A stretch of 44,384 nt of DNA. Origin: Rikenellaceae bacterium (lineage in GTDB: Bacteria > Bacteroidota > Bacteroidia > Bacteroidales > Rikenellaceae). The DNA is taken from assembly GCA_044433405.1 (NCBI GenBank), contig JAWXTQ010000001.1, positions 1-44,384 of the forward strand. Direction: 5' to 3'. A program made the position numbers and the translations under genes. The notes beneath the pieces are model-generated. The model had not been told where the DNA came from. It was given only the letters and a program-made list of their open reading frames with translations, and did no database searches. Positions 18,499-23,866 of this stretch are shown here, one piece after another (the first letter of the stretch is position 1; every line of letters begins with the position of its first letter).

Positions 18499-20853
18499 TT
18501 ATTTCACATCGTATCGCTTTGCTGACTCATCTATGATGCAGCTATTTTGCAGCTGTGCACTTAGGCGAGCAGCATAATTTTCTATCTGTTCGCGATTGCG
18601 CTCACACATCACCAATTCGCTCTCTATATCACCTCGCGGTGTCTCTTTTAGGCGTTTCTTGCCAATCTCTATAAGCTCTATTGCACGCTCATATCGCTCC
18701 TTGTCATCTCTAATTTTATCTAAGCACGGACTTTCGCTAGGTCTGTCAAACGACACTTGAGCACTCATATTGCGATACCACGCATTTAGCGACCAGAAGT
18801 TGAGCTCTACCAACTCACCTAGCTCTTTTATCTCTTCGTTAGTCAATGGTGAACGCCCAGAAAGCACATTATCAAATGCCGATTCATACACTGGATAGTA
18901 TACCCCATTGATATCCATCCACGTGTATAGTATCTTCTTCTCGCTATCTTTTAACTTAACTCCATGGTGATTAGAGTCGATAATTTGGGTGAGTCGACTC
19001 TTATGTGAACCCCAAGAGTAGGGCTCTTGAAGTGCTGCTGGCCCACCACCAATTAGGGTTACAACCTTTTTAACATATAGATTTACATAGGCAGCATTAA
19101 AAAAAGGATTTTTATCTTTTGCTAAAACCAATTTATCCCTATCATTTTTATCAAAGTCGTGACAACTAACACAACGTTTATCTAGTATTGGTTGCACCTG
19201 CTCCATAAATGAGAAGTTTTGAGGCTCTTTATCCATCCACTCCTCCATTTTACGACTCGGCTGTTTAAGTGCTATTGGCGTTTTAGCTAGAGGTAGAGGC
19301 ACACTGAGCCTATCTTCGTGACAACCGATACATCCATTTACTTCGCCTGGCATTAAGGATACTCCACTTCGCATTGTCTGTATCATCTTCATATCCTCAT
19401 CTAGCAATTGAAAGTAGAGATGTTTGCCAGCAGGAGCTTCAAAACTTGCCGAACCATCCTCCTCTACTGGCACAACGCCCAACACTCTCTTAACCTCAAA
19501 ACTGTGCCAATTGACTCCTGGAGCTTGCTCTCCCTCGCCACCCCAGCCACCAACTGTCCAACTCTTTTTAGCAGGCGACTCTACGACCCTTAAATACTTC
19601 ACACTTCCCCTATCTACCGACTCCATGTGAGTACCTTCGTAGACATTCTGCACATAAAATTGCCCCTGCTCATCTGAATAGTTTCGCATTGATGGAATCT
19701 CAGTTGGCTTAAAACGAGGCTCAATAGGCATAGGGTCAAAGAGACTTAAACTACCCTCAAACAGCAACTCCTCAGTTCCGTCAATTCCGACAAGATAGAT
19801 ACCCATTTTTTGATCTATAATATTCCAACCTCCATCTTTAACCCATATAGATTTTGACACCAAGAAGTAACCATTACCTAGAGGATATGGATCTTCATAA
19901 AAGGCTGTTAACTCCTTAAATGAGTCTAGATTACCATTACCAACCCATGCAGCACTGCTTTTAGGCCAAATATGCACTACTGGTTCTGCTCCATCAACAC
20001 CTTTATTTCTATCAATTATAGCCATCGCACCCCAAGGTCGATCGTGACATGAGCCAAATATACACACCACCTGATCACTATCAGGTATTGCACGCGCATC
20101 AATCACACCACCTGGTGAAGCTGTATTGTTACCATAATATATGGCGTGCTTAGTTCCATCTGGATTAACACTCCATAAACCCTGTGCATCGCCAAAATTT
20201 CGATCAACATACTCCCATCTATCATACAATATACGTCCATCATTTAAAAGCGCAGAATGCCCCTCAAATAGCGTACTTACTCCAATTTGCGAAATGTTTG
20301 CACCATCTCCATCCATACGATAGAGATTGGCCATGATATGACGATTGCACATGCAATATTTGGGCTCTCTAGTAGAGCTAAAGACAATACCCCCATCGGG
20401 CAGATATAGCGGATCAATATCAGAGATTCCCTCTGCAAATGTAAGTTGGTTTAGGTTATCGCCATTAATGTCAATTTCATAAATATGATACCCATCCTTT
20501 AACTCTTTGCGCATCGAGAATATTATTTTCTCACCATCAAACGAAAGCTCTGGATCACGTATCACACCGCTCTGAGTCTCTAGAAGTGTTGTAACACTCC
20601 GCGTATCAACATCAAAGACTCTCAATGCCCCACCAGGAGCAAAGCTGTTTTGATTAATCTCTCCATACTCAAACAGGGTTGCAGTGTTGTGATGATCATT
20701 TGCATACTGCTCTCTTTCAACGAATAAGATTTTCTTACCTTTAAGAACTTCGGCACTTCGCTGCAAAATAATAGACCTAGGAGCTAACTGTCCGTGAGAC
20801 AATGCTGCCGAAAATAGCAAAATCAATGTCAATGTCAAGGTTTTTGGTATCAT
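18499..20853 (-). CDS. secreted TolB/PD40-like beta-propeller protein with two C-terminal CxxCH (heme c) motifs
   Basis: The start is moved to Met22 of the track ORF (MIPKTLTLTLILLFSAALSHGQ signal), because a TATCTTTG -7 box sits inside the longer ORF. Motifs CIGCH and CVSCH lie in the C-terminal third. Confidence 0.8.
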   Translation of the reverse strand: MIPKTLTLTLILLFSAALSHGQLAPRSIILQRSAEVLKGKKILFVEREQYANDHHNTATLFEYGEINQNSFAPGGALRVFDVDTRSVTTLLETQSGVIRDPELSFDGEKIIFSMRKELKDGYHIYEIDINGDNLNQLTFAEGISDIDPLYLPDGGIVFSSTREPKYCMCNRHIMANLYRMDGDGANISQIGVSTLFEGHSALLNDGRILYDRWEYVDRNFGDAQGLWSVNPDGTKHAIYYGNNTASPGGVIDARAIPDSDQVVCIFGSCHDRPWGAMAIIDRNKGVDGAEPVVHIWPKSSAAWVGNGNLDSFKELTAFYEDPYPLGNGYFLVSKSIWVKDGGWNIIDQKMGIYLVGIDGTEELLFEGSLSLFDPMPIEPRFKPTEIPSMRNYSDEQGQFYVQNVYEGTHMESVDRGSVKYLRVVESPAKKSWTVGGWGGEGEQAPGVNWHSFEVKRVLGVVPVEEDGSASFEAPAGKHLYFQLLDEDMKMIQTMRSGVSLMPGEVNGCIGCHEDRLSVPLPLAKTPIALKQPSRKMEEWMDKEPQNFSFMEQVQPILDKRCVSCHDFDKNDRDKLVLAKDKNPFFNAAYVNLYVKKVVTLIGGGPAALQEPYSWGSHKSRLTQIIDSNHHGVKLKDSEKKILYTWMDINGVYYPVYESAFDNVLSGRSPLTNEEIKELGELVELNFWSLNAWYRNMSAQVSFDRPSESPCLDKIRDDKERYERAIELIEIGKKRLKETPRGDIESELVMCERNREQIENYAARLSAQLQNSCIIDESAKRYDVK

Positions 20854-20875
20854 ATCTTCATAATTTTGTTGCTTA

Positions 20876-20905
20876 CAAAGATAGTTTAAAATTTTCAAAA
20901 ACAAA
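20876..20905 (-). promoter_or_regulatory. candidate promoter of the propeller/GH20 operon (-7 TATCTTTG at 20883..20876; TTTG near 20905..20902)
   Basis: TAnnTTTG lies 22 nt upstream of ATG 20853, with a TTTG about 18 nt further upstream. Confidence 0.5.
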
Positions 20906-20956
20906 ACCTTTGACAAAGTATCTAAGAATTAACGCTGCCTAGCAACAAAACTATTT

Positions 20957-20988
20957 TTTGTTTTTCTTAAAATAAATTCGTAAGTTTG
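20957..20988 (+). promoter_or_regulatory. Bacteroidetes-type promoter (-33 TTTG 20957-20960; -7 TAAGTTTG 20981-20988) driving the structured element below
   Basis: Both boxes are present with 20-nt spacing. The predicted start falls at about 20993-20996, the first bases of the closing helix. Confidence 0.6.
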
Positions 20989-20992
20989 TAGT

Positions 20993-21158
20993 GCATTTCA
21001 TATCAGCAAAGGTGGGGAAACCTGCCTAATAGCAAGGCGGGCATTTTTTATGCCTTGCCTCCCTATTATACCTGCACGTGGTTTCACCCCCGTGTGGTGT
21101 ATTAATGTACCCACTGCCTTTGCTGGTGAAATGCAACGGGTCAGTGAAATCACTTTTT
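20993..21158 (+). ncRNA. candidate structured RNA (sRNA or cis-regulatory leader), class not recognised
   Basis: An 18-bp closing helix (20993-21012 with a 2-nt bulge / 21117-21134) encloses internal hairpins and a possible loop-loop pairing (GGGGAAACC 21014-21022 with GGTTTCACCCC 21080-21090). A small hairpin plus T5 follows at 21143-21158. Confidence 0.45.
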
Positions 21159-21205
21159 ATATCTTTCACGGCCTCATTGTTTAACACTAAGACTTATTTA
21201 AGGCC

Positions 21206-21529
21206 ATGGAACAAAAAAACAGAGTGCAGTTTACAACTTCTCAAATCTTCATTTTAGAGCATGAAGAACAAAAAAGGCTCTACACCTATCTATCACTATT
21301 TCAGTATTGCTACCTACGTTATCCTAGCTACAATGAACTTCAATTGTTCAGAACACTAGAGAAAGACTTCAAGTTATTCTCGCAAGAGATGCAGAGTCAA
21401 TATGTTAAAGACCCCAACAATTTAACTTTAAGTAGGATAAATAAATTTTTCGCAGCTCACTACAGTAATATTAAACATCTTCGCGAAGAGATGGAAAACA
21501 CTACTAACAGTAGTGTTGATAATGATTGA
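21206..21529 (+). CDS. hypothetical protein (orphan)
   Basis: 107-aa ORF with an ATG start, directly downstream of the structured element. No recognisable motifs. Confidence 0.4.
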   Translation: MEQKNRVQFTTSQIFILEHEEQKRLYTYLSLFQYCYLRYPSYNELQLFRTLEKDFKLFSQEMQSQYVKDPNNLTLSRINKFFAAHYSNIKHLREEMENTTNSSVDND

Positions 21530-21593
21530 TATTTTTTTCGGTAAAGTCAATAGCTACAAGCACAATAAACCAAAGAGAAGTGAACACCCCAAA

Positions 21594-21771
21594 GCACCTT
21601 TAGGTTTAGCGTTAAGAAATTTTTGAAAAATTGGATAGAGGAAATTGAATGTTTGAAGCTCTCTCTAACCTATACTTCATAGGCAAGAGCAACACCAAAC
21701 ATCGCAGAGGAGAGCAAGTCTCAATTTCCCCAATTTTTCAAAAATTTTAGCGTTAAAAACCTAAGAAGTGC
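21594..21771. repeat. 178-nt imperfect inverted repeat forming a rod-like hairpin
   Basis: Arms include a perfect 18-bp pairing (AAATTTTTGAAAAATTGG 21617-21634 / CCAATTTTTCAAAAATTT 21730-21747), GGAAATTGA 21640-21648 / TCAATTTCC 21721-21729, outer GCACC..AGGTTT / AAACCT..GTGC, and an apical CCTAT/ATAGG hairpin. Confidence 0.7.
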
Positions 21772-21879
21772 AAGTTCTTTGTTTCTTTCTTCAAAGAAAG
21801 GAAATCAAAAGAAATGAAATTAAAAATCATATAGATGCAAAACCAAACCTCACCAATAGCAAACCTATTGTTCTACCTT

Positions 21880-21915
21880 AAAAAACTCAACCTGTCGCTA
21901 AAGGTTGAGTTTTTT
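21880..21915. terminator. bidirectional intrinsic-terminator-like hairpin
   Basis: AAAAAACTCAACCT / loop GTCGCTAA / AGGTTGAGTTTTTT, with an A-run upstream and a T-run downstream. Confidence 0.65.
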
Positions 21916-22112
21916 AACACCACGCCACCCTGCACTTTTTGCTACGCAAAAAGTGCTTTTAACGGGCGGTGGCGAGGTTGAGATCTGGACTGTCCTTGCG
22001 GACGGCAGGGGTCAGAGACCCCTTTGGGAGAAACTGCGTTTCTCCTGTGCATAGGCTCGGTGAATAGGGGCAACATCAGCACAAAAACCACCTAAACACT
22101 AATTCGTCACAT

Positions 22113-22155
22113 AAAAAATAGAGCTGCCTAATAATATTAGGCAGCTCTATTTTTT
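22113..22155. terminator. strong bidirectional terminator downstream of the TPR lipoprotein gene
   Basis: AAAAAATAGAGCTGCCTAAT / AAT loop / ATTAGGCAGCTCTATTTTTT, roughly 20 bp of perfect stem flanked by A/T runs. Confidence 0.85.
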
Positions 22156-22177
22156 ATTTCTTGTCTAAAGGATAAGA

Positions 22178-23866
22178 CTAGATTTCGAAGTTGATAAATT
22201 CTACTTCTTCTTTTGCTTTAGCTTCAAATGATGAATCTTTAGCGATTGCATCTTCTAGGTTTGAAGTTACACCTGATTGGTTACCTTCGCGAGCTGCGAT
22301 GATAGCTTTCAAGTAAGATGCAGAAGCTGAATCTTCTTTGCTAAGAATTGATTTAGCTTGAGATATGTTACCATTACAGAACTCAGCAACAGCTAGGTTG
22401 TAACCGTTAAGAACTTTAACAGCTGCATCATAGTTACCTTCTTGTAGGTTTACTAGACCCATGTTGTATTTAGAATCGCTAGTAGAGATAGAAGATAAGT
22501 ATTTTTTAGCTTCAGCAGTGTTTCCTTCGAATAGAGCAACAGCACCTAAGTTGTTGATAACTTCGTTAGAAGAAGAGTTCAATTGAGCAGCTTTAGCGAA
22601 TGAGCCTTTAGCTTCGTTGATTTCGCCCTCTCTTGCTAAGATAACACCAAGGTTGTTCCATCCACGGAAATCGCTAGCGAATTGTTTAGTTGCAGTTGCA
22701 TAAACTTTAGCTTTTGTAGCGTTGTCAGTGAAAAGAGTTGCGCTATAAAGTAACTCTTCAAGTTTAAGAGAGTTGATATCACCATTAACTTTAGCTTTAA
22801 TCTCATCATCAGAAAGACCTTCGATGTCTACGTTAACTTGTAGTTTAGAACGACGAAGTTCTGGAAGAATTTTCTCAGCTAACACTTTGAATACAGCAGA
22901 AAGATTTTTGATTTCAGCATCACGTTTTTGAGGATCTGAAGTCATAGCAAGGATTTGAAGAATCAAATCTTTTTGATCGATATCAGAAGCTTGAACTAAT
23001 GCTTTGAAACCTTCCCAGTCCTCACCAAGAGCGTCAATTTCTAGACCTTTGTAAGGAGTGTCATCTTTCTTAAATTTGCTAGTAATTGCTTTATCAGTAG
23101 ATTTACCACGGTTTACAGAAAGCTCATCGTTGAAGTTTAGAGGACCATCAGGAGAAGCGTAAGCTTTAGCAGTTACGTTGCTTACAGTTCTACGATATGC
23201 ACCTTCGTTCTCTTTGATGAAGTTTTGAAGTGTAGCAAGTTCTTCAGTAGAAAGAGCTTGGTTACGAACCACAGCAGAGTTGATAGTGTACATAATGTGA
23301 GCCTCTTCAGTAACAGTTGTGATACGTTTGAAGTTATCTGGAGCGATTGCTAATTTAGCAAAATCGTCAGCTAACAACTGAACTGTGCTAATGCCTTCAG
23401 CAACGAAGATATCGTCTGGAAGAGCAACAAATTCTTCTGAAGTATCAGCAGTACCCTCTTTAGAACACATAGCTTCAACTTTTAAGAATAAAGTAGAACG
23501 CTTAGCAGCAGGGATGTAATCGAAAGATACTGATTGAGTAACTTTGCTAGGAGTGCTCCATGCAACAACTTGGTAGTTATCGCTAACTTTTTCTCCTTGA
23601 AGGAATTTAGGAGTTCCTACTATTTCACCATCTGCATACTTAAGAACAGGAGTGATTTTTAGGATAGCCGTTTTTGCAAATACTTTTGCAGGGATATCCA
23701 AAGTGTAAGTTGCATCTACAGTAGAGCCTTTAAGAGACAAAATAGCTGGAGAGCTTGATACACCTACAGTGTCAATTTTGTTTGAAACCTTTTTGAAACA
23801 GTTACAGCTGTTCAACGCAAGAACAGACATTACTGCAACAACGCCAACTTTCAAAAACTTTTTCAT
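22178..23866 (-). CDS. lipoprotein with a degenerate OmpA-like segment and C-terminal TPR repeats
   Basis: 562 aa. Signal plus Cys (LALNSCNC), AYASPDGPLNFNDELSVNRG (OmpA-C-like block), and repeated TPR-like units (WNNLGVILAREGEINEAKGSFAKAAQL...). Confidence 0.85.
   Translation of the reverse strand: MKKFLKVGVVAVMSVLALNSCNCFKKVSNKIDTVGVSSSPAILSLKGSTVDATYTLDIPAKVFAKTAILKITPVLKYADGEIVGTPKFLQGEKVSDNYQVVAWSTPSKVTQSVSFDYIPAAKRSTLFLKVEAMCSKEGTADTSEEFVALPDDIFVAEGISTVQLLADDFAKLAIAPDNFKRITTVTEEAHIMYTINSAVVRNQALSTEELATLQNFIKENEGAYRRTVSNVTAKAYASPDGPLNFNDELSVNRGKSTDKAITSKFKKDDTPYKGLEIDALGEDWEGFKALVQASDIDQKDLILQILAMTSDPQKRDAEIKNLSAVFKVLAEKILPELRRSKLQVNVDIEGLSDDEIKAKVNGDINSLKLEELLYSATLFTDNATKAKVYATATKQFASDFRGWNNLGVILAREGEINEAKGSFAKAAQLNSSSNEVINNLGAVALFEGNTAEAKKYLSSISTSDSKYNMGLVNLQEGNYDAAVKVLNGYNLAVAEFCNGNISQAKSILSKEDSASASYLKAIIAAREGNQSGVTSNLEDAIAKDSSFEAKAKEEVEFINFEI

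What the first reader, a model, noticed from the sequence alone, without database searches (positions are those of the whole stretch)
20957..21205. Promoter-to-terminator candidate structured RNA upstream of an orphan 107-aa ORF
A well-spaced TTTG/TAAGTTTG promoter predicts a transcription start exactly at the first base pairs of an 18-bp closing helix (20993-21012 / 21117-21134). The helix can extend through a 3-nt bulge to TGGG/CCCA. Inside are a GCAAGGC...GCCTTGC hairpin and an ATAC..TGCACG / CGTGTGG..GTAT hairpin. The loop of the second hairpin (GGTTTCACCCC) is complementary to the unpaired GGGGAAACC near the 5' side, which would form a pseudoknot. Downstream, GTGAAA(T) occurs again at 21145-21150 and TTTCAC at 21164-21169. 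The 3' strand of the closing helix therefore has competing partners, and a small hairpin plus T5 (21143-21158) precedes the ORF at 21206. This architecture fits either a stand-alone sRNA or a riboswitch-like leader. I could not match it to any class I know. I compared it by eye with cobalamin, TPP, c-di-GMP, ZTP and Moco consensus features.
Basis: partly seen in the sequence, partly recalled or inferred. Interest (0 to 1): 0.65.

Follow-up and report, generated by a model that had tools for sequence, protein, structure and literature searches.

The report
Novel structured RNA of Bacteroidota mobilome
The flagged region is a real copy of a previously undescribed, about 170-230 nt, multi-helix RNA that has its own promoter and sits in front of many unrelated small genes on phages and integrative elements across Bacteroidota, most likely as a switch controlling their translation.

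Summary
The sequence features are real. A Bacteroidetes-type promoter (TTTG 20957-60, TAAGTTTG 20981-88) is followed directly by an RNA that folds far better than shuffles (z -5.9). Rfam 15 has no match. I collected 69 distinct homologues: about 90% of cells pair, 42 pairs show compensatory change, and register-shift controls drop to 33-46%.

The fold is:
- a 9+9 bp closing helix P1;
- four hairpins P2-P5;
- a 3' hairpin T2 that encloses the T-run.

GGGGAAACC is the small GNRA-capped hairpin P2, not a pseudoknot strand. TGGG/CCCA is not a P1 extension.

The family is not tied to the 107-aa ORF. It occurs in Rikenellaceae, Bacteroidaceae, Prevotellaceae, Tannerella, Odoribacter, Butyricimonas and Chitinophagaceae, in at least 11 Porphyromonas gingivalis phages and in 17 IMG/VR contigs. 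It always has its own promoter and is usually followed by one of at least 15 unrelated small ORFs, two of them SymE-like toxins.

In at least 10 distant loci the start-codon region repeats the P1 5' strand and co-varies with it, so the P1 3' strand has two partners, as in a translational switch. In the window's own subgroup this evidence is weak.

Best reading: a new cis-regulatory leader whose signal is unknown.

The parts
20957..20988 (+). Bacteroidetes-type promoter: -33 TTTG (20957-60) and -7 TAAGTTTG (20981-88). The predicted start is about 20993-96, at the first pairs of P1.
   Evidence: Read directly from the sequence. The motif pair is conserved at the same distance in homologues.
20992..21012 (+). 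P1 5' strand: P1a 20992-21000, internal-loop TAT 21001-03, P1b 21004-12.
   Evidence: P1a pairs in 95.8% of cells and P1b in 98.5%; 16 of 18 pairs have changes on both sides.
21013..21024 (+). P2: 4-bp hairpin TGGG/CCTG capped by the GNRA tetraloop GAAA (21017-20).
   Evidence: 89% of cells pair and 3 of 4 pairs have double-sided change. One search assigns the preceding GG to P1b.
21028..21067 (+). P3: long hairpin of variable length. Lower part AATAG/CTATT, upper part AGGCGGGCAT/ATGCC.TGCCT.
   Evidence: The apical 7 bp pair in 91% of cells and all 7 pairs covary. The lower part is poorly conserved (60-69% paired).
21072..21097 (+). P4: hairpin CTGCACG/CGTGTGG with the conserved loop TGGTTTCACCC. 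Its last 4 nt (GTGG 21094-97) are shared with P5.
   Evidence: The core pairs in 95% of cells with one-sided changes only. The loop residues GGTTT and CCCGT are at least 90% conserved family-wide.
21094..21114 (+). P5: hairpin GTGG.GTAT / GTAC.CCAC region with the invariant loop motif TTAATG (21102-07).
   Evidence: every one of its 7 pairs shows double-sided change.
21117..21135 (+). P1 3' strand: P1b 21117-25, bulged G 21126, P1a 21127-35.
   Evidence: Same as for the P1 5' strand.
21134..21169 (+). 3' domain.
- Near-invariant (at least 90% conserved) CAACGGG at 21134-40.
- Weak stem T0, GGGT 21138-41 with ACTT 21152-55.
- T-run at 21154-58.
- Helix T2, GTGAAA 21145-50 with TTTCAC 21164-69, which encloses the T-run.
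   Evidence: (helix 10). T2 partners co-vary. In T0, G-U outnumbers A-C 26 to 0.
21170..21205 (+). A/U-rich leader, conserved in the Rikenellaceae subgroup (..GTTTAAC..AAGGC before the ATG). AAGGC..TGG (21200-09) is complementary to CCA..GCCTT (21111-20).
   Evidence: The complementarity is at a consistent site in at least 15 of 24 relatives but without covariation, so the evidence is weak.
21206..21529 (+). 107-aa ORF, co-transcribed cargo gene. It belongs to a family of 51 clusters with no Pfam, NCBIfam, PHROG or PADLOC match. The predicted fold is three helices.

Best explanation
The element is one copy of a new family of structured 5' leader RNAs carried by mobile genetic elements of Bacteroidota (temperate phages, integrative mobilizable elements and their chromosomal remnants).

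A constitutive-looking Bacteroidetes promoter starts transcription at the foot of an 18-bp clamp, P1. P1 closes a junction of four hairpins: P2 with a GNRA loop, the variable P3, P4 with the conserved GGUUUCG..CCCCGU loop, and P5 with a UUAAUG loop. A short 3' domain follows (CAACGGG, then helix T2 around a U-run). About 40 nt further on lies the start codon of a small cargo gene that has no promoter of its own.

The folded 5' domain most likely acts as a sensor or scaffold for a signal common to all these elements: a small molecule, an ion or a host or phage factor, not identified here. It sets how much cargo protein is made. When P1 (and P5) are closed the start region is free. When they are opened, their 3' strands can capture the start-codon region and block initiation, which in Shine-Dalgarno-poor Bacteroidota depends on an unstructured start region.

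Shown: the fold, its covariation, the promoter, the variable cargo, and the co-varying complementarity between the P1 3' strand and the start codon in other subfamilies.

Inferred: that this complementarity works as a switch, its direction, the existence of a signal, and that the window's own copy uses the same logic through the weaker AAGGC..UGG / CCA..GCCUU complementarity.
For: Structure and conservation.
- Folding z-score is -5.9.
- 69 distinct homologues: 89.9% of cells pair, 42 of 52 pairs have changes on both sides, 618 such cells against 175 +/- 13 in shuffles, and 33-46% paired when partners are slid by 1-3 columns.
- Highly conserved unpaired residues lie in the P4 and P5 loops, around the P1 internal loop and in the tail after P1 (L4, L5, CAACGGG), as in ligand- or protein-binding RNAs.
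- The promoter is conserved at a fixed distance.
- G-U exceeds A-C in P1, P3, P4 and T0, which fixes the strand as that of the ORF.

The function does not depend on the protein.
- The same RNA precedes at least 15 unrelated small ORF families. These include two SymE_toxin proteins and many orphans.
- The ORF is the only recurrent neighbour.

Switch evidence.
- In L123 (two copies), L130, L131, L134, L135, L145, L147, L148 and L162, with shorter 7-nt matches in L119 and L160, 8-10 nt at or over the start codon repeat the P1a 5' strand. The sequence differs in each locus (TGACTTACAC, TGAACTTCAC, TGTCATACAC, TGCATTCCAC and others). The chance of one 8-nt match in a 100-nt window is about 0.0015.
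- No promoter motif lies between the RNA and the ORF, and the RNA-to-ATG distance is constrained.
- The U-run lies inside the covarying T2 hairpin, not after a strong stem.

Mobile-element context: integrases, HTH_17, DUF3408, MobC and relaxase neighbours, 11 P. gingivalis phages and 17 IMG/VR contigs.

Expression: family members are present in metatranscriptome contigs.
Against: - No ligand, protein partner or transcript ends were determined. The RNA runs available are assembler contigs only and may contain DNA.
- P1 is long and stable and is transcribed before the competing start region, so by itself it should win. What would open it is unknown.
- In the window's own subgroup (107-aa ORF) there is no repeat of the P1 5' strand at the start codon. 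The alternative complementarity there shows no covariation.
- Some copies keep an intact RNA next to a decayed ORF (L108, L100, L111a), and RNAs occur in tandem (L123, L139, L133). This would also fit an RNA that functions on its own.
- A hairpin plus U-run after P1 could terminate a discrete sRNA.
Confidence: 0.5

Rival explanations
1. Stand-alone, trans-acting small RNA of about 165-175 nt encoded by mobile elements. It is transcribed from its own promoter and ends at the T0 hairpin and U-run. The downstream ORFs are only read-through passengers.
For: - Own promoter exactly at the 5' end of P1, which would give a 5'-protected stable RNA.
- Hairpin plus U-run conserved after P1.
- Intact RNA copies with a decayed or missing ORF.
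- Tandem RNA copies.
- Raised depth over the RNA in metatranscriptome contigs.
Against: - T0 is only 4-5 bp with an 11-nt loop.
- The U-run sits inside the covarying T2 hairpin.
- An ORF follows on the same strand at a fixed distance, with no promoter of its own, in nearly all intact copies.
- The co-varying match between the start codon and the P1 strand has no role in this model.
Confidence: 0.2
2. RNA antitoxin (type I- or type III-like) of toxin-antitoxin modules. The small downstream proteins are toxins. The upstream RNA neutralises them by pairing with the toxin start region or by binding the protein, and the terminator sets the RNA:toxin ratio as in ToxIN.
For: - Two downstream ORFs are SymE_toxin family proteins.
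- The layout promoter-RNA-U-run-small ORF resembles type III loci.
- The modules are multi-copy, linked to mobile elements and often decaying.
- The P1 3' strand is antisense to the start region.
Against: - One conserved RNA is paired with at least 15 unrelated proteins, which argues against specific RNA-protein neutralisation.
- There are no tandem repeats in the RNA.
- The antisense segment is locked in P1 of the same molecule.
- No toxin similarity was found for the 107-aa family.
- One ORF copy (P0044) is intact without an RNA directly upstream, although another RNA copy lies next to it.
- No antisense promoter of the SymR kind was found.
Confidence: 0.12
3. Processive antitermination RNA (like HK022 put). 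The folded RNA binds the transcribing RNA polymerase just after the promoter and lets it read through the following terminator into early or cargo genes.
For: - Promoter-proximal position.
- A terminator-like site directly after it.
- In P. gingivalis phages it lies in the early rightward operon, between the repressor-side genes and the primase.
- Its function would be independent of cargo identity.
Against: - No similarity to put or EAR in the Rfam searches.
- The model does not explain the complementarity between the start codon and P1.
- The candidate terminator is weak.
Confidence: 0.08
4. A DNA-level element: a recombination or attachment site, a MITE with terminal inverted repeats, or a single-strand origin or promoter of a conjugative element. 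On this reading it is not an RNA.
For: - The minus strand folds equally well (z -5.87).
- The element is linked to integrative and mobilizable elements.
- It is multi-copy.
Against: - Fixed orientation behind a promoter and in front of an ORF.
- G-U tolerated far more than A-C in several helices, for example 26 to 0 in T0.
- Four internal hairpins with conserved loops and compensatory changes.
- No flanking target-site duplications.
- It lies inside phage early operons rather than at element ends.
Confidence: 0.03

Closest known systems
Translational ON riboswitches, e.g. the add adenine riboswitch of Vibrio vulnificus
   Same: A structured 5' domain is closed by a P1 helix. The 3' strand of P1 can instead pair with the translation-initiation region, so a closed P1 leaves the start free. 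Conserved unpaired nucleotides lie in loops and junctions.
   Different: No sequence or model similarity (Rfam). P1 is 18 bp rather than a few pairs. There are five helices plus a separate 3' domain. No ligand is known. The element is carried by phages and integrative elements in front of unrelated orphan genes rather than metabolic genes. The start-codon pairing is seen in only part of the family.
Type III toxin-antitoxin loci (ToxIN, CptIN, TenpIN)
   Same: The gene order is promoter, non-coding RNA, terminator-like site, small protein gene. They are mobile-element linked and often multi-copy.
   Different: Type III antitoxins are tandem arrays of 34-45 nt repeats, processed by and specific to one toxin family. 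This RNA has no repeats, is a single 5-helix fold, and is combined with at least 15 unrelated proteins.
SymE-SymR type I system of E. coli
   Same: SymE-family proteins follow the RNA in two loci. An RNA segment is complementary to the symE-like start region.
   Different: SymR is a short cis-antisense RNA from the opposite strand. Here the complementary segment is part of the same-strand upstream leader. No antisense promoter is found, and most cargo genes are not SymE.
Phage HK022 put and Bacillus EAR processive-antitermination RNAs
   Same: A promoter-proximal structured RNA in phage early operons or long operons, followed by a terminator-like site, acting independently of downstream gene identity.
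   Different: No homology. put is two stem-loops of about 70 nt. Antitermination was not tested here.
Orphan large structured RNAs of phages and mobile elements (e.g. GOLLD, HEARO, ROOL, raiA in Rfam)
   Same: Found by comparative analysis, strongly covarying, linked to mobile elements or prophages, biochemical function unknown.
   Different: None of their models matches. This RNA is smaller, restricted to Bacteroidota, and is tightly coupled to a promoter and a downstream start codon.

Membership tests
Any Rfam 15 family (4227 models) | Score at or above the family's gathering threshold. | tested here: not met
   Window: only two tRNAs elsewhere. At E<=10 over 20800-22250 only noise overlaps the element (SCARNA7, MESTIT1_3). 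15 distant loci give 0 hits. L134 at E<=5 gives noise only.
Riboswitch (as a kind) | A conserved aptamer-like fold supported by covariation, with conserved unpaired nucleotides. | tested here: met
   42 covarying pairs, and 20 unpaired columns at least 90% conserved.
Riboswitch (as a kind) | An expression platform with mutually exclusive pairings that link the aptamer to the start codon or a terminator. | tested here: inconclusive
   Met in at least 10 distant loci, where the P1a 3' strand pairs with either the P1a 5' strand or the start region and the sequences co-vary. In the window's subgroup only a non-covarying 5+3 bp complementarity is found.
Riboswitch (as a kind) | Direct binding of a small-molecule ligand. 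| not testable with these tools
   Needs in-line probing, ITC or similar with candidate ligands.
Riboswitch (as a kind) | Association with genes of a coherent pathway that points to the ligand. | tested here: not met
   The downstream genes are at least 15 unrelated small orphan families plus SymE-like toxins.
Type III toxin-antitoxin RNA antitoxin | Tandem direct repeats of a short unit upstream of the toxin gene. | tested here: not met
   TRF finds nothing in 20900-21600. No repeat family lies within the element.
Type III toxin-antitoxin RNA antitoxin | A cognate toxin of the ToxN, CptN or TenpN endoribonuclease family. | tested here: not met
   The 107-aa protein has no Pfam or PADLOC hit and a generic 3-helix fold.
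Type I toxin-antitoxin, SymR-like antisense RNA | The antitoxin is transcribed from the opposite strand across the toxin start. | tested here: not met
   No recurrent reverse-strand TAnnTTTG promoter lies downstream of the start codons. The conserved promoter is on the ORF strand.
Intrinsic terminator-ended sRNA | A strong G+C-rich stem directly followed by a U-run, and a 3' end there. | tested here: inconclusive
   A weak 4-5 bp stem plus T5 is present. The U-run is enclosed by the covarying T2. The 3' ends could not be mapped.
MITE or other inverted-repeat DNA element | Terminal inverted repeats flanked by target-site duplications, in either orientation relative to genes. | tested here: not met
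   The orientation is fixed behind the promoter, no flanking duplications were seen, and G-U exceeds A-C.

The most novel reading that the evidence does not exclude
A phage- and ICE-borne sensor RNA shared across Bacteroidota that reads one common cellular signal (a metabolite, a nucleotide second messenger or a host or phage factor). It gates translation of fast-evolving accessory cargo: toxins, and possibly anti-defence or superinfection-exclusion proteins. If so, it is both a new riboswitch-like class and a genomic flag for islands of unknown mobile-element effector genes in gut and oral Bacteroidota.
Probability: 0.25. Interest if true: 0.9.

Novelty: new variant of a known kind. Interest (0 to 1): 0.75.

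Why it matters
Bacteroidota dominate the gut and are important in the mouth, yet few cis-regulatory RNAs are known in them, and their translation initiation largely lacks Shine-Dalgarno pairing.

This is a strongly covarying five-helix RNA shared by P. gingivalis phages, gut prophages and integrative elements. It sits in front of hypervariable orphan genes, among them SymE-like toxins.

It offers three things:
- a new RNA fold to solve and a candidate sensor to de-orphanise;
- a concrete model for how start-region structure controls translation in this phylum;
- a sequence handle for finding unannotated accessory, toxin or anti-defence genes of Bacteroidota mobile elements.

It also corrects gene calls. 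In the P. gingivalis phage records the RNA is annotated as the N-terminus of a 189-aa protein.

Tried and rejected
- **Synteny.** The 80 loci holding relatives of the adjacent 805-aa gene contain no copy of the element. It is not a conserved feature of that chromosomal neighbourhood.
- **Nested helix or pseudoknot GAAACC:GGUUUC.** RNAalifold predicted it on the close relatives, and it appeared iso-energetic with the P4 alternative. I dropped it once distant homologues showed the 5' partner is a covarying GNRA hairpin and the complementarity is not kept. The invariance of GGGAAACCTGCC in my first set was partly caused by my own search pattern.
- **A P4-long versus P5 two-state switch.** The 4 shared nucleotides can pair both ways in nearly all sequences, but the covariation signal is modest (94 of 104 cells against 89 in shuffles; 16 of 2000 shuffles as high). 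I left it as a possibility only.
- **Function of the 107-aa protein.** The AlphaFold model is confident (pLDDT 88.6), but there is no Foldseek hit at E<=0.001 and no PDB, Pfam, NCBIfam, PHROG or PADLOC relative. An RHH-like reading of the N-terminus could not be supported.
- **Antisense SymR-like promoter.** Not found.
- **Long-range pairing of the conserved leader with the core in the window's subgroup.** RNAalifold finds none. RNAduplex finds only a short non-covarying site.
- **Expression and transcript ends.** Only assembler contigs were available. They show presence, not boundaries.
- **Plasmid collection.** No match.
- **Literature searches.** FopS; SymE plus Bacteroidetes; RNA motif; P. 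gingivalis phages. None gave a description of this RNA.

Full report
**What is in the window**

Positions 20957-21205 lie between a divergently transcribed 805-aa gene (18499-20916, minus strand, HZS_alpha domain) and a 107-aa ORF (21206-21529, plus strand). The sequence holds a textbook Bacteroidetes promoter: TTTG at 20957-60, a 20-nt spacer, then TAAGTTTG at 20981-88. The following 170 nt fold at -69.6 kcal/mol against -46.0 +/- 4.0 for 200 dinucleotide shuffles (z -5.9). The complementary strand folds equally well. Rfam 15 gives nothing at gathering thresholds for the whole window except two tRNAs elsewhere. At E<=10 only noise overlaps the element.

**Finding relatives**

- The neighbouring genes place the window in Rikenellaceae. 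Identical DNA occurs in fish-gut metagenomes.
- The element is absent from 80 loci syntenic for the 805-aa gene.
- The 107-aa ORF has relatives, 4 at first and 51 clusters with a profile, all at E<1e-25 and none annotated.
- Every relative I could place on a contig is preceded by a homologous element (nhmmer E 4e-15 to 7e-27), with obvious compensatory changes in the closing helix.
- A pattern built from two blocks that were invariant in those five sequences found 22 further copies. All are in Rikenellaceae MAGs, with up to five or more per genome.
- That pattern fixed GGGAAACCTGCC by construction. I therefore ran a second pattern anchored in the P4/P5 loops and the 3' tail.
- The second pattern opened the family up. 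It found copies in Bacteroidaceae, Prevotellaceae, Butyricimonas, Odoribacter, Tannerella, Alistipes, a human-gut Rikenellaceae isolate and two Chitinophagaceae. All were confirmed by the covariance model at 54-179 bits; one extra fragment scored 23 bits.
- The family also occurs in 17 IMG/VR viral contigs, one faecal phage and 11 Porphyromonas gingivalis phages.

**Structure**

On 69 distinct sequences aligned to the model:
- 89.9% of cells form standard pairs;
- 42 of 52 pairs show changes on both sides;
- 618 cells carry such changes, against 175 +/- 13 in column shuffles;
- sliding the 3' partners by 1-3 columns drops pairing to 33-46%.

The alignment is fitted to the model, which inflates these figures somewhat. 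An independent MAFFT/RNAalifold run on 24 sequences gave the same helices, with 27 covarying pairs.

The supported fold is:
- P1a (9 bp), a 3x1 internal loop, and P1b (9 bp);
- P2, a 4-bp hairpin with a GNRA loop;
- P3, a variable hairpin with a well-conserved apical stem;
- P4, with a loop in which GGUUU and CCCGU are at least 90% conserved;
- P5, with an invariant UUAAUG loop;
- then CAACGGG and a 3' domain.

The GG before P2 belongs to P1b. It is unpaired in 0-1 sequences and has 9 and 5 double-sided changes there, against 8-11 unpaired cells if it is given to P2.

In the 3' domain, helix T2 (GGYGRAA with UUYCRCC) encloses the U-run. Its strands co-vary: the mean longest stem is 7.0 with own partners and 5.99 +/- 0.19 with swapped partners.

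G-U pairs outnumber A-C mismatches in P1, P3, P4 and above all T0 (26 to 0). With the promoter, this fixes the RNA strand as the ORF strand.

- Right: the promoter, the closing helix, the P3 hairpin, the hairpin with the GGTTTCAC loop, the small hairpin plus T-run, and the absence of a known class.
- Wrong: the pseudoknot. The complementarity of GGGGAAACC to the P4 loop is real in the window, and RNAalifold even nests it as a helix on close relatives. In distant members the 5' partner varies as a hairpin of its own while GGUUUCG is constant.
- Wrong: the TGGG/CCCA extension. It is displaced by P2 and P5.
- Unresolved: the outer part of the second hairpin shares four nucleotides with P5. Both pairings are possible in nearly all sequences, but the statistical support for the P4 extension is modest.

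**Context**

- In several Rikenellaceae contigs the RNA-ORF pair lies inside integrative mobilizable elements. Neighbours there include tyrosine integrases with Arm-DNA-bind_5, HTH_17 excisionase-like genes, DUF3408, MobC and a relaxase.
- In other contigs, and in the window, it stands alone between housekeeping genes.
- The only recurrent neighbour is the ORF.
- Decayed copies of either part occur, as do tandem copies and one copy split by a small insertion.
- Outside this subgroup the 107-aa family is not found downstream. Instead the RNA is followed, at a similar distance and on the same strand, by at least 15 unrelated small ORFs. Two are SymE_toxin family members (PF08845, E 4e-14 and 6e-10). 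The others match no Pfam family above its curated cut-off.
- In P. gingivalis phages the RNA lies about 3 kb from the left end, between repressor-side genes and the primase. It is annotated there as the N-terminal third of a 189-aa hypothetical protein. The shorter ORF starting after the RNA is the likely gene.

**The key mechanistic clue**

In L123 (two copies), L130, L131, L134, L135, L145, L147, L148 and L162, with shorter 7-nt matches in L119 and L160, the 8-10 nt at or immediately before the start codon repeat the P1a 5' strand. They are therefore a perfect complement of the P1a 3' strand.

The sequence differs from locus to locus and changes in step with P1:
- TGACTTACA / ATGACTTACAC
- GAACTTCA / ATGAACTTCAC
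- TGTCATACA / ATGTCATACAC
- TGCATTCCA / ATGCATTCCAC
- GATCTACA / GATCTACAAAATG

.

An exact 8-mer in a 100-nt window is expected about 0.0015 times per locus. So one strand has two mutually exclusive partners, one closing the structured domain and one covering the start codon. This is the layout of translational ON riboswitches.

Because the same RNA serves unrelated proteins, it is unlikely to recognise its protein product. A signal common to the carriers is more plausible.

**Limits for the window's own copy**

- In the 107-aa-ORF subgroup the start region does not repeat P1a.
- Its conserved AAGGC(A/U)AUGG is complementary to CCA(C/U)UGCCUU, that is the P5 3' strand, the junction and the top of the P1b 3' strand. 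RNAduplex picks this site in at least 15 of 24 relatives. Both partners are simply conserved and there is no covariation.
- RNAalifold finds no leader-core helix.
- Transcript ends are unknown. Metatranscriptome contigs from the same fish-gut study cover the family at raised depth, but they cannot define ends or exclude DNA. Wastewater RNA contigs for a distant member are equally uninformative.

**Rivals**

- A free sRNA ending at the U-run fits the promoter, the U-run and the RNA-only copies. It does not fit T2, the fixed ORF spacing or the start-codon complementarity.
- A toxin-antitoxin reading fits the SymE cargo, the copy number and the decay. However, one RNA with many unrelated proteins, no repeats and no antisense promoter argue against known type I and type III mechanisms.
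- Processive antitermination fits the phage position but is untested.
- A DNA-level element is disfavoured by strand asymmetry and fixed orientation.

**Verdict**

This is a real feature and a new RNA family. I found no Rfam model and no description in the searched literature. It is best read as a cis-regulatory, probably translational, leader of mobile-element cargo genes in Bacteroidota. Confidence that it is a conserved structured RNA is about 0.97. Confidence in the leader/switch mechanism is about 0.5 for the family and lower for the window's copy.

Noticed in passing
window 21564-22103: The non-coding stretch after the ORF is highly repeated in the source metagenome. DNA contig depth is 380-1300 against about 13 for the flanks, and it is also very high in the RNA run. 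It contains a long palindrome (18-nt perfect arms 21617-34 / 21730-47, extendable) and a perfect 16-bp hairpin at 21878-21917. No Rfam hit and no copy in the fetched loci. It may be a MITE-like or other dispersed repeat.
   Followed up: partly
window 22111-22157: A perfect 23-bp palindrome flanked by A-run and T-run. It is a bidirectional intrinsic terminator at the 3' end of the 562-aa TPR gene. It produced the only sub-threshold Rfam hits in the region (sau-5971, L20_leader), which are terminator look-alikes.
   Followed up: partly
L107 2712-2900: In one Rikenellaceae copy a roughly 180-bp insertion with inverted ends (CTTAAGAAACTGTTTAA ... TTAAACAGTTTCTAAA) sits between the RNA's T2 and the conserved leader. 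The ORF behind it is intact.
   Followed up: no
L123 6416-7472 (human-gut Rikenellaceae isolate MGYG-HGUT-00128): Three tandem copies of promoter + RNA + ORF start, spaced about 295 nt apart. The first two carry only the first ~25 codons of the ORF and the third a full 95-aa ORF. The surroundings look prophage-like (many small same-strand ORFs, including one with a KilA-N/Bro-like N-terminus, judged by eye and not tested).
   Followed up: partly
L147 2926-3495; L166 2965-3534 (Porphyromonas gingivalis phages BK068101, PP754931): The RNA is annotated as the N-terminal third of a 189-aa 'hypothetical protein'. A 110-aa ORF starting at ATGCATTCCACAG after the RNA is the more likely gene.
   Followed up: partly
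window 20983 / 21802: One DNA contig in run X1 joins 20983 to 21802, skipping 818 bp that hold the RNA and the ORF. Its depth (13.9) is close to the flank depth. Only 22 nt lie on the shorter side, so it may be a variant lacking the module or a chance or repeat-driven join.
   Followed up: no
L117 6001-6600 / L118 696-1010: One ORF of the 107-aa family (P0044) has lost the RNA but keeps the last ~45 nt of the leader. In L117 it is followed at once by a second RNA copy whose own ORF is truncated.
   Followed up: partly
window 18499-20916 (minus strand): The 805-aa neighbour carries a hydrazine-synthase alpha middle domain (PF18582). It has more than 500 relatives across Bacteroidota, Planctomycetota, Verrucomicrobiota and Lentisphaerota at 50-75% identity. 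It lies next to a GH20 hexosaminidase, so it is probably a glycan-related secreted protein and not part of this finding.
   Followed up: no
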